Position numbers: made by a program. This document shows, piece by piece, positions 44,301 through 47,300 of a DNA stretch of 64,000 bases. Source of the DNA: Escherichia coli. GTDB lineage: Bacteria; Pseudomonadota; Gammaproteobacteria; Enterobacterales; Enterobacteriaceae. The stretch lies in assembly GCF_024223415.1 (NCBI RefSeq), contig NZ_CP100500.1; one strand, given 5' to 3'. The first letter of the stretch is position 1. Each line of letters opens with the position of its first letter.

Positions 44301-47300
44301 GGTGGTGGTCGCGAAAGTCATTTTTTCGCCGATGGCATTTTTCAGGTGCTCAAATGACAGCGTTTCGATATCAAGATGATATTTTTCACACAATAATTGA
44401 GCGATAGCGTACGCACCGCCGAGCATTTTGAAGGCGTTCAGACCGAATCGTTTTGATTCGTCTTTGACAAGAATTTTCTTCACACCAAAAAGGTTTGCGA
44501 GATCGTCCAGCGCACAAAGCGGTGTTGGGCGATAACCAGCTATTTTCTGGTGGAACTGGCGCGCCAGTTTGGCCTGGCTTTGCGAAAAGAGCGGTGATGT
44601 TTCGCCGTTGAAAAATTTGTTATCGGCGATATCAATCTTCAATGAGAAAACGGACATATCCTATCCTTTTGGCCTCTGGAAATAGAGGGCCGACCAGCTG
44701 ATCGGCCCGAGGGGTTATTTCACGCGTTCTTGCGCTTCTTTCAGCAGTTGCTCGAGCAGTGCACCTGGTTTGGCGTATTTACGGGACAGGATCATCGCGG
44801 CGATGATATAAGGCTTCCAGCTGGCTTCTTTGTAGGTAGCGATACGGTATTTTTCGAATACGCCTTCAGTCACTTCACCTTCTTTGCAGGATACACCGCT
44901 GATATCAGCTGGCAGGCAGTGCATGTACAGGGCTTCGCCATCACGGGTCAGTTCCATCATCTCTTCAGTACAATGCCAGTCTTTGTGTTGCGCGTTCTGT
45001 GCCAGACACTGTTTTTCCAGTGCTTTTAAGCCTTCGTGATCGTTCGCACGCAGCAATTCAGTACGCTCTTCCATAACTTTGTAAGGTGCCCATGACTTCG
45101 GATAAACGATGTCTGCGTCTTTGAAGGCTTCTTCCATGCTGGTGACCTGACGGAAGCTACCACCGGAGGCTTTAGCATTGTTTTTCGCCACTTCAACCAC
45201 ATCCGGGATCAGGTCGTAGCCTTCCGGATGGGCCAGGGTGACATTCATACCGAAGCGAGTCATCAGACCGATGATGCCTTGTGGTACAGAGAGCGGTTTG
45301 CCATAGCTTGGAGAGTAGGCCCAGGTCATGGCGATTTTTTTACCTTTCAGGTTTTCCAGTGAACCAAAGTGTTCACGTAACCATGCCAGGTCAGCCATTG
45401 ACTGAGTCGGGTGGTCAATATCGCATTGCAGGTTCACTAAAGCCGGACGTTGCGGCAGCACGCCCTGCTTGTAACCGTCATCAAGTGCAGCGCCAACTTC
45501 ACGCATATAGGCGTTGCCTGCGCCCAGATACATATCGTCGCGAATACCAATAGCGTCGGCGCAGAAGGAGATCATATTGGCGGTTTCACGCACGGTTTCG
45601 CCGTGAGCGATTTGTGATTTGCCTTCGTCGAGATCTTGCTGTGCAAGGCCGAGCAGGTTAAGCGCGGAAGCATAAGAGAAGCGGGTACGGGTGGAGTTGT
45701 CGCGGAATACGGAAATACCTAATCCACTATTAAAGACTTTGGTTGAGATGTTTTCAGCACGCAGTGCTTTTAATGCTGCGGCAACGTCCAGTACTTGTTT
45801 CAGTTCATCTGGCGTCTGTTCCCACGTTAACAAAAAATCTTTCTCGTGAAGGTGAGAGGTCAGCGAATTGATATCCTTAATCAGCTCATTAACAGTTTTC
45901 ATCATAAAGTCCCGGTAGTGGAATGACAGGCAAAGTGGTTTATTTCACTGTGACTTGCCAAAGTGATTGGTGTTTTCACAGCTATACCTGGGACTAACAA
46001 TAAGTGTGCCAGAATTATCCACGGGGCTGCAAAAGACTAATTTGACGGATAATGTGTGGGGTTGATCACAAATTGATGCCAGCTTCGGGTTGTTTGTAAA
46101 ATACGAAAACGTTTGGCTTTTTTTATTGCGTTATTTATTTGCTGCTAAGTATCAGAAATAAGATAAAGGGGCAGGCTATCCCTCGTCAGTTTGATAAACT
46201 CACCGCCGTAATTCTCATATTGATATAGAAATGTGATATCTCTTCCATAATTTCATTAGAAAGTGATAAAAATCTTATGTTTTTATCAAAGCCAATTTCG
46301 CCTGAGTTAATATCATCATGATCTGTGAACCATCAACGTCTTCAATGATCGACTTTTAAGTAAGTCTGGAAGGTAAAGCTATGGAGCTTGCTACTACGCA
46401 GTCAGTATTGATGCAAATTCAACCGACAATTCAGCGTTTTGCCAGAATGCTTGCCAGCGTTTTGCAGCTTGAGGTTGAGATCGTTGATGAAAACTTGTGT
46501 CGCGTCGCCGGAACGGGCGCGTATGGGAAGTTTCTTGGTCGCCAGTTGAGCGGCAACTCACGCCTGCTCCGCCACGTCCTGGAAACGAAAACTGAAAAAG
46601 TTGTGACACAGTCTCGCTTCGATCCCCTTTGCGAAGGTTGCGATAGTAAAGAAAATTGCCGCGAAAAAGCATTTCTGGGTACGCCTGTCATTTTACAGGA
46701 TCGTTGTGTTGGGGTGATAAGTTTGATTGCCGTTACCCACGAGCAACAAGAGCATATCAGTGATAATTTACGCGAATTTTCTGATTATGTTCGCCATATA
46801 TCCACCATTTTTGTTTCGAAACTTCTGGAGGATCAGGGGCCAGGAGATAACATCAGTAAAATATTCGCGACCATGATCGATAATATGGATCAGGGCGTAT
46901 TAGTTGTAGATGATGAAAATCGGGTTCAGTTTGTTAATCAGACTGCCTTAAAAACACTTGGTGTTGTGCAAAATAATATTATTGGGAAACCTATCCGTTT
47001 CAGACCATTAACATTTGAGAGTAATTTTACCCATGGACATATGCAGCATATTGTTTCGTGGGACGATAAAAGTGAATTAATCATTGGTCAATTGCATAAC
47101 ATTCAGGGCCGACAATTATTTTTAATGGCGTTTCACCAATCGCATACCAGTTTTTCTGTAGCAAATGCACCTGATGAACCGCATATTGAACAATTGGTTG
47201 GCGAGTGCCGTGTTATGCGGCAATTAAAACGACTCATTAGCCGTATTGCACCCAGCCCATCCAGCGTTATGGTGGTTGGTGAAAGCGGCACGGGTAAAGA

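What the first reader, a model, noticed from the sequence alone, without database searches (positions are those of the whole stretch)
45906..46380. Divergent ygeV / ygeW control region with a candidate sigma-54 promoter and repeated TGATAAA-like motifs
ygeV encodes a sigma-54 enhancer-binding protein (GAFTGA present). On the opposite strand, about 90 nt upstream of ygeW, is TGGCAC-N5-TTGTT, a near match to the -24/-12 sigma-54 consensus. The AT-rich spacer also holds several TGATAAA-like repeats (TTGATAAACTC, AGTGATAAAAATC, and TTTATCAAAG as its reverse complement) that could be activator or IHF sites. This fits a YgeV-activated operon ygeW-dpaL-ygeY-hyuA-yqeA whose inducing signal is not established.
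Basis: inference. Interest (0 to 1): 0.5.

Follow-up and report, generated by a model that had tools for sequence, protein, structure and literature searches.

The report
ygeW sigma-54 promoter and its enhancer
This is the already published sigma-54 promoter of the E. coli ygeW purine/uric-acid breakdown operon; the TGATAAA-like repeats upstream of it are half-sites of the probable binding motif of its activator YgeV, so the region is real but mostly ordinary.

Summary
The window is E. coli. ygeW (-) and ygeV (+) flank a 475-bp spacer, and CTGGCACACTTATTGTT lies at 45996-46012 (-), 90 nt before the ygeW ATG. Three exact TGATAAA heptamers occur where 0.18 are expected.

The promoter is not new. 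The same 17-mer is sigma-54 ChIP-seq site OS30 of Bonocora et al. 2015. RpoN genomic SELEX also hits this spacer, and a YgeV iModulon containing ygeWXY is published. I found the -24/-12 element conserved in 33 of 33 divergent ygeV-ygeW spacers.

The repeats are half-sites of a TATCA-N3-TGATA palindrome. That palindrome is the only 5-mer inverted repeat shared by the upstream regions of all four cluster sigma-54 promoters (ygeW, xdhA, ygfK, ygfT). It equals the published enhancer motif of the clostridial regulator DioR, and a matrix built only from DioR sites ranks these four places 1, 2, 3 and 5 in the window.

No IHF core is present. Instead a conserved CRP site sits at -77.5.

YgeV binding, the transcription start and rpoN/ygeV dependence of ygeW remain untested. 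Interest is low to moderate.

The parts
44715..45905 (-). ygeW coding sequence (knotted carbamoyltransferase), first gene driven by the promoter; RefSeq start is the second ATG, at 45902
   Evidence: ORF list. NCBIfam YgeW equivalog at 823 bits. RefSeq annotation.
45906..45985 (-). Predicted ygeW 5' untranslated region of about 80 nt. Near its 5' end is a stem-loop (GCUGUGA...UCACAGU). Just before the ATG is the conserved block CCGTCATTCCACTACCGGGA.
   Evidence: The start is inferred from the -24/-12 geometry, not mapped; it matches the 'distance 80' in Bonocora Table 1. Hairpins in orthologs give a mean z-score of -0.87. No Rfam match.
45996..46012 (-). Sigma-54 promoter CTGGCACACTTATTGTT. 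GG at 46010/46009 is -25/-24; GT at 45998/45997 is -13/-12.
   Evidence: Top matrix hit in the window at 16.0 bits. Reached in 3 of 2000 spacer shuffles. Conserved in 33 of 33 orthologous spacers. Identical to ChIP-seq site OS30. RpoN genomic SELEX peak.
46055..46070 (.). CRP site TGTGATCAACCCCACA (9 of 10 core positions), centred about -77.5 from the predicted start
   Evidence: Pattern search gave 6 hits against 1.85 expected. A match of at least 8 of 10 at -77.5/-78.5 in 24 of 33 orthologs. CRP genomic SELEX lists ygeV<>ygeW (PMC3105977). A 'native Crp-binding site' is mentioned in PMC12507026.
46103..46118 (.). PurR-operator-like box AGCCAAACGTTTTCGT (14 of 16 to ACGCAAACGTTTKCGT)
   Evidence: Pattern search. 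Conserved only in the 6 closest relatives' spacers (5 loci plus E. coli). Function not established.
46184..46196 (.). Second, weaker enhancer element TATCAAACTGACG, centre about -205, 29 bp from the main palindrome.
   Evidence: TTATCA-N3-TG is conserved in 20 of 20 aligned Enterobacterales. It scores below 2 bits with the DioR matrix.
46210..46228 (.). Main enhancer (UAS) palindrome CTATATCAATATGAGAATT; core TATCA-ATA-TGAGA at 46213-46225, centre about -234. Proposed YgeV dimer site.
   Evidence: DioR-derived matrix score 17.1 bits, rank 2 in the window. Present at 0-2 core mismatches (0-1 in 31 of 33) in orthologous spacers at a helically phased distance. The same palindrome lies upstream of xdhA, ygfK and ygfT.
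46232..46247 (.). Conserved element TGTGATATCTCTTCCA (+ strand), 8 of 10 to the CRP core, always 20.5 bp from the main palindrome. It is either a CRP site serving ygeV or an extension of the YgeV site.
   Evidence: Block 'AAATATG..A....ATCACATTT' is conserved in 20 of 20. The assignment is unresolved.
46262..46274 (.).
   Evidence: Exact TGATAAA. Conserved only in E. coli and its five closest relatives.
46282..46291 (.). It may double as the -35 region of the ygeV promoter.
   Evidence: Alignment block B. No sigma-70 promoter passed the consensus scan here, so the ygeV promoter is not located.
46306..46323 (.). Conserved block GTTAATATCATC plus the 1-mismatch palindrome TATCATCATGATC, 58-75 bp before the ygeV ATG. 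Candidate ygeV -10 region and/or autoregulatory YgeV site.
   Evidence: Alignment block A is conserved in about 19 of 20. Pattern hit.
46381..48159 (+). ygeV: sigma-54 enhancer-binding protein. It has a GAF-like N-terminus with four conserved cysteines, PAS, an AAA+ domain with GAFTGA, and HTH_8. It has no receiver domain.
   Evidence: Pfam, translation, ortholog conservation.

Best explanation
The spacer is a divergent control region.

Shown or published:
- RNA polymerase carrying sigma-54 binds the -24/-12 element at 45996-46012 as a closed complex.

Inferred:
- Transcription starts near 45985 and gives an 80-nt leader before ygeW.
- Opening of the promoter needs the AAA+ activator YgeV.
- YgeV binds as dimers to a remote enhancer about 200-255 bp upstream. 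The enhancer consists of the palindrome TATCA-N3-TGA(G/T)A at 46213-46225, a weaker copy 29 bp nearer the promoter (46184-46196), and flanking TGATA(AA) half-sites.
- A hexamer assembled there reaches the promoter by DNA looping.
- cAMP-CRP bound at 46055-46070 (about -77.5) supplies the bend that IHF supplies at many other sigma-54 promoters. This would tie the operon to absence of glucose.
- The half-sites nearest ygeV probably overlap the promoter of ygeV itself.

The same enhancer motif, and in most cases a phased CRP site, precede the other sigma-54 promoters of the purine/uric-acid cluster (xdhA, ygfK, ygfT). The cluster would therefore be one YgeV regulon, switched on by a purine-derived signal that is not identified.
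For: Sigma-54 site:
- It is the best matrix hit in the window and is reached in 3 of 2000 spacer shuffles.
- It is conserved in orientation and position in 33 of 33 divergent ygeV-ygeW spacers.
- It has published ChIP-seq and genomic SELEX support.

Enhancer:
- TATCANNNTGATA with at most 1 mismatch has 7 hits against 1.58 expected. Five of the 7 lie upstream of the four cluster sigma-54 promoters.
- Among 9216 possible 5-mer inverted repeats it is the only one present in all four upstream regions. Any four-of-four pattern arises in 28 of 2000 shuffles.
- A matrix built only from 19 published clostridial DioR sites ranks the ygfT, ygeW, ygfK and xdhA upstream sites 1, 2, 3 and 5 in 64 kb.
- The palindrome sits at about -234 in orthologs. 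Its distances to the promoter cluster at 189.5, 199.5, 210 and 222.5 bp.
- The sigma-54 element and the palindrome co-occur upstream of ygeW in all 35 loci with ygeV nearby and in 5 further proteobacterial loci, although in L003 the best matrix hit lies at -352 rather than on the conserved palindrome near -234 and L038 has only a 7.9-bit sigma-54 match. Both are absent from the other 39 loci, which are mostly non-proteobacterial.
- A Firmicutes YgeV homolog has an identical recognition helix (ELGIGIATLYRKI). It has three TATCA-N3-TGATA-like palindromes plus a sigma-54 promoter before a YgeY/DpaL-like operon.

YgeV: GAFTGA, an AAA+ domain and HTH_8 are present.

CRP:
- The site is conserved.
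- CRP-like sites lie at -97.5 (ygfK, perfect), -78.5 (yqeC-internal promoter) and -67.5 (xdhA, weak).
- CRP genomic SELEX hits ygeV<>ygeW, ygfK and ygfT<>ygfU.
- Glucose represses uric acid degradation in wild type.

Regulon: a YgeV iModulon exists, and ygfT expression is lower in a ygeV mutant.
Against: - No YgeV-DNA binding data exist for any of these sites. I also found no mapped ygeW start and no rpoN or ygeV dependence test for ygeW itself.
- ChIP-seq enrichment at OS30 is low (fold above threshold 3). Bonocora et al. stress that binding is not proof of a working promoter.
- The -12 element is GT, not the consensus GC.
- Only one spacer site scores well with the DioR matrix.
- The enhancer lies unusually far from the promoter (about 210 bp from the -24 element).
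- CRP-cAMP inhibits the sigma-54 promoters studied so far: glnAp2, dctA and Pu (PMC3900584). A positive architectural role here is therefore inference. The glucose effect could instead act through the ygeV promoter.
- Conservation counts come from related genomes and are not independent events.
Confidence: 0.7

Rival explanations
1. The TGATAAA-like repeats are IHF sites that bend the DNA between activator and promoter.
For: TATCAA resembles the WATCAA half of the IHF core, and the region is AT-rich. Many sigma-54 promoters use IHF (established knowledge).
Against: No match to WATCAANNNNTTR occurs anywhere in the spacer. The window has 3 matches against 2.9 expected, all elsewhere. The repeats lie at -205 to -330, that is, at or beyond the enhancer rather than between it and the promoter. 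The same motif is the published DioR enhancer motif. The stretch between enhancer and promoter is unconserved except for the CRP site.
Confidence: 0.05
2. The palindrome is the site of a different transcription factor (for example Fur, or an unknown purine-responsive repressor), not of YgeV.
For: There are no YgeV binding data. GATAA-type motifs resemble the Fur hexamer GATAAT. The ygfK site matches 13 of 19 positions of the Fur box.
Against: Fur-box matches of 12-14 of 19 occur 146 times in the window, so they are not significant, and the arm order is everted relative to the Fur 7-1-7 arrangement. No FNR, NtrC or ModE consensus is present. The motif tracks sigma-54 promoters and ygeV/dioR across Proteobacteria and Firmicutes. 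The YgeV recognition helix is invariant among orthologs and identical in the Firmicutes homolog whose target carries the same motif.
Confidence: 0.1
3. The repeats nearest ygeV (46262-46323) belong to the ygeV promoter, as -35/-10 elements and/or YgeV autoregulation, and contribute nothing to ygeW activation. This is partly compatible with the best explanation.
For: Blocks A (46306-46317, TAATAT/TAGTAT-like) and B (46282-46291, TTATCA) are conserved and lie 60-100 bp before the ygeV ATG. ygeV needs a promoter. Divergent activator genes are often autoregulated from shared sites (established knowledge).
Against: The two hexamers are 19 bp apart in E. coli, and no sigma-70 promoter passed the consensus scan there. 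No ygeV start site is available. Both blocks contain the same TGATA half-site as the enhancer.
Confidence: 0.35
4. CRP at -77.5 is an anti-activator of the ygeW sigma-54 promoter, as at glnAp2, dctA and Pu. In that case glucose repression of the pathway would work through CRP activation of ygeV, or through transport.
For: Every sigma-54 promoter examined so far is inhibited by cAMP-CRP (PMC3900584). A second CRP-like element at 46232-46247 could be a class I site for ygeV.
Against: Uric acid degradation is repressed by glucose, not stimulated. No IHF core is present to provide the bend. The CRP site keeps a fixed distance to the -24 element (53-54 bp, or 43), and insertions or deletions between enhancer and promoter come in steps of about 10-12 bp. 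CRP-like sites at the other cluster promoters differ from this one by multiples of 10 bp.
Confidence: 0.3
5. The sigma-54 site is bound but never fires. It would be one of the non-productive sites common in the E. coli sigma-54 ChIP-seq map.
For: Low ChIP enrichment (3), no transcript reported, and a non-consensus -12 element. The YgeV iModulon is rarely active.
Against: It is conserved in 33 of 33 spacers at 65-108 nt before the ATG in 32 of 33 (228 in one). It is also present in 5 loci without ygeV nearby, and is always accompanied by the enhancer palindrome. ygeW, ygeX and ygeY co-vary with xdhABC and ygfK in the iModulon. No competing sigma-70 promoter for ygeW stands out.
Confidence: 0.05

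Closest known systems
Sigma-54 ChIP-seq site OS30 (ygeW) of Bonocora, Smith, Lapierre and Wade 2015 (PMC4591121), and the RpoN genomic SELEX peak ygeV/ygeW of Shimada et al. 2021 (PMC8743547)
   Same: It is the very same 17-mer, CTGGCACACTTATTGTT, in the same orientation and 80 nt from ygeW. It is the same object, already on record.
   Different: Those studies show holoenzyme binding only. They give no activator, enhancer, start site or condition.
DioR regulon of Clostridiales (Nie et al. 2019, PMC6615313)
   Same: It is a sigma-54 activator controlling dpaL, ygeW-ygfK-ssnA-ygeY, xdhABC, yqeB and pbuX. Its enhancer sites are TTATCA-N3-TGATAA, 175-390 bp before the gene. The C. botulinum ygeW site ATTTATCATAATGATAAGG differs by one base from the E. 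coli ygfK site.
   Different: The clostridial promoters have the canonical TTGCT at -12, whereas all proteobacterial ygeW promoters have TTGT, TTGA or TTGG. No CRP exists in Clostridia. Homology between DioR and YgeV was shown here only through one Firmicutes homolog, not for the named DioR proteins.
prpR-prpBCDE divergent control region of E. coli/Salmonella (PrpR, sigma-54, IHF, CRP), recalled from the literature and not re-read here
   Same: A divergent activator gene and a catabolic operon. The sigma-54 promoter has a remote enhancer. There is positive catabolite control through CRP in the shared spacer.
   Different: prp uses an IHF site. Here no IHF core is found, and CRP sits where IHF would be.
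glnAp2 / NtrC enhancer
   Same: A strong dimer site plus weaker sites upstream, with activator oligomerisation and looping to a closed sigma-54 complex.
   Different: The NtrC sites lie at -140 and -108 and NtrC is a phosphorylated response regulator. YgeV has GAF-like and PAS sensor domains and no receiver domain. CRP represses glnAp2.
pspA and pspG sigma-54 promoters
   Same: They also have T instead of C at -12 (TTGTA), yet are confirmed sigma-54 promoters.
   Different: They are activated by PspF, which has no sensor domain, and they use IHF.

Membership tests
Sigma-54 (-24/-12) promoter | TGGCAC-type -24 element with the invariant GG | tested here: met
   CTGGCAC at 46012-46006. The GG is conserved in 33 of 33 orthologs.
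Sigma-54 (-24/-12) promoter | TTGC(A/T) -12 element with the invariant GC, exactly one helical turn after the GG | tested here: inconclusive
   The spacing is exact, but the element is TTGTT (GT, not GC). The whole-site score of 16.0 bits is near the median of 38 ChIP-validated sites. pspA and pspG share TTGT. The C is absent in all 33 orthologs.
Sigma-54 (-24/-12) promoter | Correct orientation and a plausible distance to a downstream gene | tested here: met
   It points at ygeW, with 90 nt from the motif end to the ATG. The distance is 65-108 nt in 32 of 33 orthologs.
Sigma-54 (-24/-12) promoter | Bound by sigma-54 holoenzyme | not testable with these tools
   Published: ChIP-seq OS30 and RpoN genomic SELEX.
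Sigma-54 (-24/-12) promoter | Transcription depends on rpoN and on an AAA+ activator, with the start about 12 nt after the -12 element | not testable with these tools
   I found no start site and no rpoN or ygeV mutant data for ygeW in the accessible library. Indirect evidence only: the iModulon and the ygfT result.
Enhancer (UAS) of a sigma-54 activator, YgeV/DioR type | Inverted repeat some 100-300 bp upstream of the -24/-12 element | tested here: met
   TATCA-ATA-TGAGA at 46213-46225, 207 bp upstream of the -24 element.
Enhancer (UAS) of a sigma-54 activator, YgeV/DioR type | The same motif upstream of the other sigma-54 promoters of the regulon | tested here: met
   Found in 4 of 4 (ygeW, xdhA, ygfK, ygfT). 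It is the only one of 9216 palindromes to do so, and 28 of 2000 shuffles give any four-of-four pattern.
Enhancer (UAS) of a sigma-54 activator, YgeV/DioR type | Matches the independently derived motif of the orthologous regulator | tested here: met
   A matrix from 19 clostridial DioR sites ranks the four sites 1, 2, 3 and 5 in the window.
Enhancer (UAS) of a sigma-54 activator, YgeV/DioR type | Co-occurs with the regulator gene and is conserved in position | tested here: met
   plus the Firmicutes locus L082.
Enhancer (UAS) of a sigma-54 activator, YgeV/DioR type | Physically bound by the activator and required for activation | not testable with these tools
   No YgeV gel-shift, footprint or ChIP data were found.
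Bacterial enhancer-binding protein (YgeV) | AAA+ sigma-54 interaction domain with GAFTGA, plus a C-terminal Fis-type helix-turn-helix | tested here: met
   Sigma54_activat E = 2e-70; HTH_8 E = 3e-13; GAFTGA in the translation.
Two-component response regulator ('orphan RR', as YgeV/IsrR is called in PMC9426417) | N-terminal receiver (REC) domain | tested here: not met
   No Response_reg hit. The N-terminus is GAF-like (weak) plus PAS.
IHF site | Core WATCAANNNNTTR between enhancer and promoter | tested here: not met
   No match in 45906-46380.
CRP site | TGTGA-N6-TCACA | tested here: met
   9 of 10 at 46055-46070. Conserved at -77.5/-78.5 in 24 of 33 orthologs. Published CRP genomic SELEX target ygeV<>ygeW.
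PurR operator | 16-bp palindrome ACGCAAACGTTTKCGT | tested here: inconclusive
   14 of 16 at 46103-46118. The window has 5 hits with at most 3 mismatches against 1.5 expected. Conserved in only 6 genomes.

The most novel reading that the evidence does not exclude
The E. coli purine/uric-acid degradation cluster is a single YgeV regulon. Its enhancer code (TATCA-N3-TGATA) has been retained from Clostridia to Enterobacteria. In Enterobacteria, cAMP-CRP at helically phased sites (-67.5, -77.5, -97.5) replaces IHF as the loop-forming co-activator. That would be a natural case of positive CRP control at sigma-54 promoters, the opposite of its known inhibitory effect at glnAp2, dctA and Pu. In addition, the CX2CX5C cysteine cluster in the YgeV sensor domain might make activation redox- or metal-dependent.
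Probability: 0.3. Interest if true: 0.55.

Novelty: already known. Interest (0 to 1): 0.3.

Why it matters
The ygeW-side cluster encodes the anaerobic uric-acid and purine degradation pathway of gut bacteria. That pathway is now being engineered for gout therapy; one group has already replaced this very spacer with constitutive promoters (PMC12507026).

The wiring proposed here is a sigma-54 promoter, the YgeV enhancer palindromes and a CRP site. It explains why the pathway is silent in glucose and under standard laboratory conditions. It also gives concrete bases to mutate or footprint when looking for the unknown YgeV ligand.

None of this changes how sigma-54 promoters are thought to work. 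The promoter itself is already in the literature.

Tried and rejected
- IHF: the core WATCAANNNNTTR has no match in the spacer.
- Other regulators: the best Fur-box match is 12-13 of 19, as common as background. The FNR, NtrC and ModE consensus patterns have no match.
- RNA families: Rfam finds nothing in 45700-46600 even at E = 1.
- Leader structure: RNAalifold gives no consensus structure for the ygeW leader. Single-sequence folds show a 5' hairpin that is only modestly more stable than shuffles.
- Window-wide significance of the sigma-54 match: rejected, because shuffled windows reach the same score in 106 of 200 cases. The case rests on position, conservation and the published ChIP data.
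- ygeV promoter: the sigma-70 scan did not locate one convincingly.
- Perfect TATCA-N3-TGATA inside ygeX (44369-44381): orthologs keep it in only 9 of 38 cases and vary at synonymous positions, so it is treated as chance.
- Iwadate and Kato 2019, the source of the ygeV-mutant result, could not be read.
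Full report
**What is there.** The window is Escherichia coli chromosome. The 1.1 kb around the finding is 100% identical to strain EC1515 and is present in 5187 of 5426 complete genomes, annotated ygeW and ygeV. ygeW is 44715..45905 on the minus strand; RefSeq starts it at 45902, the second of two adjacent ATGs. ygeV is 46381..48159 on the plus strand. The spacer is 45906..46380. ygeW matches the YgeW equivalog model at 823 bits. YgeV has a weak GAF-like N-terminus, a PAS domain, a Sigma54_activat domain containing GAFTGA, an AAA lid and an HTH_8 domain. 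It has no receiver domain.

**The sigma-54 element.** I built a matrix from 38 intergenic sigma-54 ChIP-seq sites of Bonocora et al., leaving out the four sites of this gene cluster.
- The matrix gives 16.0 bits. This is the best score in the window on either strand and close to the median of the training sites.
- A score this high turns up somewhere in about half of shuffled 64-kb windows (106 of 200).
- Inside the spacer alone it turns up in only 3 of 2000 shuffles.

Position and conservation carry the argument. I fetched 80 loci encoding YgeW relatives, of which 33 have a divergent ygeV. All 33 carry the element in the ygeW orientation. In 32 of them it lies 65-108 nt before the ATG.

**It is already published.** The same 17-mer is site OS30 in Table 1 of Bonocora et al. 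2015. It is assigned to ygeW at distance 80 and has low enrichment. RpoN holoenzyme genomic SELEX gives a peak between ygeV and ygeW. The PRECISE-1K paper describes a YgeV iModulon containing xdhABC and ygeWXY. It cites earlier sigma-54 promoters there, and it reports that ygfT expression falls in a ygeV mutant (gene list). I found no mapped start site and no rpoN or ygeV test for ygeW itself.

**The repeats.** The three motifs sit at the stated coordinates. Exact TGATAAA occurs 3 times in the spacer where 0.18 is expected; 1 of 3000 shuffles reaches 3.

An alignment of 20 Enterobacterales spacers shows which copies matter.
- AGTGATAAAAATC is conserved only in the closest genera.
It contains the palindrome TATCA-N3-TGATA at 46213-46225.

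**A regulon-wide enhancer motif.** The three other sigma-54 sites of the cluster reported by Bonocora et al. are in this window: xdhA at 51917-51933 (-), ygfK at 36180-36196 (-) and ygfT at 21173-21189 (+).
- TATCANNNTGATA with at most one mismatch has 7 hits in the window against 1.58 expected. Five of them lie upstream of these four promoters.
- I enumerated all 9216 inverted repeats made of a 5-mer arm and a 0-8 base spacer. This palindrome is the only one found in all four 300-bp upstream regions.
- In 2000 dinucleotide-preserving shuffles, some pattern reaches four of four 28 times.

The motif equals the enhancer motif that Nie et al. 2019 derived for DioR. DioR is the clostridial sigma-54 activator of dpaL, ygeW-ygfK-ssnA-ygeY and xdhABC. 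A matrix built only from 19 of their sites ranks the ygfT, ygeW, ygfK and xdhA upstream sites 1, 2, 3 and 5 in the 64-kb window. These sites lie 125-207 bp upstream of the -24 elements.

**Conservation of the architecture.** In the orthologous spacers the palindrome is centred near -234 relative to the inferred start. A weaker copy lies 29-30 bp closer to the promoter. Distances from palindrome to the -24 element fall in groups near 189.5, 199.5, 210 and 222.5 bp, that is, steps of about one helical turn (related genomes, so not independent).

The sigma-54 element and the palindrome occur together upstream of ygeW in all 35 loci with ygeV nearby and in five more proteobacterial loci. Two of these are weaker cases: in L003 the top matrix hit lies at -352 rather than on the conserved palindrome, and L038 has only a 7.9-bit sigma-54 match. 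Neither occurs in the other 39 loci, which are mostly non-proteobacterial.

A Firmicutes protein shares 31% identity with the YgeV sensor region. It has the recognition helix ELGIGIATLYRKI, identical to that of YgeV. It precedes a YgeY/DpaL-like operon whose GC-rich leader carries a 16.3-bit sigma-54 element and three TATCA-N3-TGATA-like palindromes.

**What sits between enhancer and promoter.** There is no IHF core in the spacer. TGTGATCAACCCCACA (46055-46070) matches the CRP core at 9 of 10 positions, centred about -77.5. A match of at least 8 of 10 at -77.5 or -78.5 is present in 24 of 33 orthologs.

CRP-like sites also lie at the other cluster promoters:
- a perfect one at -97.5 before ygfK;
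- a 9 of 10 match at -78.5 before the sigma-54 promoter inside yqeC (described);
- an 8 of 10 match at -67.5 before xdhA.

CRP genomic SELEX lists ygeV<>ygeW, ygfK and ygfT<>ygfU as targets. A 2025 paper mentions the native Crp site in this spacer and shows that glucose represses uric acid degradation in wild type. Against a positive role, cAMP-CRP inhibits glnAp2, dctA and Pu.

**Mechanism proposed.**
- Shown or published: sigma-54 holoenzyme binds the element.
- Inferred with good support: YgeV dimers bind the palindrome and neighbouring half-sites, assemble there and loop to the promoter.
- Inferred with weaker support: CRP supplies the bend and makes the operon glucose-sensitive, and the half-sites closest to ygeV overlap the ygeV promoter.
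- Unknown: the YgeV ligand.

On the ligand, three facts are relevant. The orthologous clostridial cluster is uric-acid inducible. ygeV transcription rises with indole. The iModulon is active in only a few conditions.

**Operon extent.** All five genes are co-oriented with gaps of 40-57 bp. However, a terminator-like hairpin with a T-run follows ygeY (42173-42156), and a GC-rich hairpin follows ygeW (44708-44687). ygeWXY is the safer unit; hyuA and yqeA may depend on read-through.

**Verdict.** The promoter is already known, and the enhancer motif is known for the clostridial counterpart. The new contribution here is placing that motif in E. coli, together with the phased CRP sites. That is incremental and awaits binding and expression experiments.

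Noticed in passing
window 45996-46012 and the orthologous spacers of L001-L080: The -12 element of the ygeW sigma-54 promoter never has the consensus C. It reads TTGT, TTGA or TTGG in 33 of 33 orthologs, whereas all clostridial DioR-regulated promoters read TTGC. This is a conserved departure from consensus with unknown meaning.
   Followed up: partly
window 46103-46118 and 20832-20847: There are PurR-operator-like boxes: AGCCAAACGTTTTCGT in the ygeW spacer, conserved only in the six closest genomes, and ACGTAAACGGTTGCTT about 35-50 bp before the uacT ATG. The same pattern search also hit upstream of the 364-aa ORF at 1087-2181, which I take from memory to be gcvT (not checked with any tool), a gene recalled from the literature as PurR-regulated.
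   Followed up: partly
window 37511-37527, 37452-37467, 37752-37770: The published sigma-54 promoter inside yqeC, which drives yqeB, has a CRP-like site at -78.5. Its only strong DioR-type palindrome (TTTTCTCAATGTGAGAATG, rank 4 in the window) lies about 223 bp downstream of the start, inside the long leader. This may be a downstream enhancer.
   Followed up: partly
window 46381-48159 (YgeV residues 84-109): Four cysteines (C84, C87, C93, C109; DPLCxGCxxKxxC...CxGVISL) are at least 90% conserved in 36 orthologs. The CX2CX5C part is also kept in a Firmicutes homolog. This suggests a metal or Fe-S site in the sensor domain. In addition, YgeV has no receiver domain although one paper calls it an orphan response regulator.
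   Followed up: partly
window 45906-45985: The ygeW leader begins with a stem-loop whose sequence differs between genera while the CUG...CAG base is kept. The block CCGTCATTCACTACCAGGA before the ATG is conserved. There is no Rfam match and no alifold consensus, and the stability excess is modest (mean z-score -0.87).
   Followed up: partly
window 46232-46247: A conserved element TGnnA-N6-TCACA lies exactly 20.5 bp from the main palindrome in Enterobacterales and also in Photobacterium. It could be a second CRP site (class I for ygeV) or part of the YgeV site.
   Followed up: partly
window 42156-42173 and 44687-44708: Terminator-like hairpins lie in the ygeY-hyuA gap (with a T-run) and in the ygeW-ygeX gap (GC-rich stem, poor T-run). 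They bear on how far the ygeW transcript extends.
   Followed up: no
window 20869-20885 (-): A weak sigma-54-like element, CTGGCACTCCACGAGCA (7.5 bits, rank 70), lies 69 nt before the uacT ATG. It shares the divergent spacer and the palindrome at 20992-21010 with ygfT. uacT is in the YgeV iModulon.
   Followed up: no
window 44369-44381: A perfect TATCA-N3-TGATA lies inside ygeX (dpaL). Orthologs keep it in only 9 of 38 cases, varying at synonymous positions, so it is probably chance.
   Followed up: yes
window 36259-36274 / 36362-36380, 46055-46070 / 46210-46228, about 51966-51981 / 52049-52067: Centre-to-centre distances from palindrome to CRP site are 104.5 bp (ygfK), 156.5 bp (ygeW) and 84.5 bp (xdhA, weak CRP match). 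These are close to whole numbers of helical turns (about 10, 15 and 8). This is a post hoc observation on three cases.
   Followed up: partly
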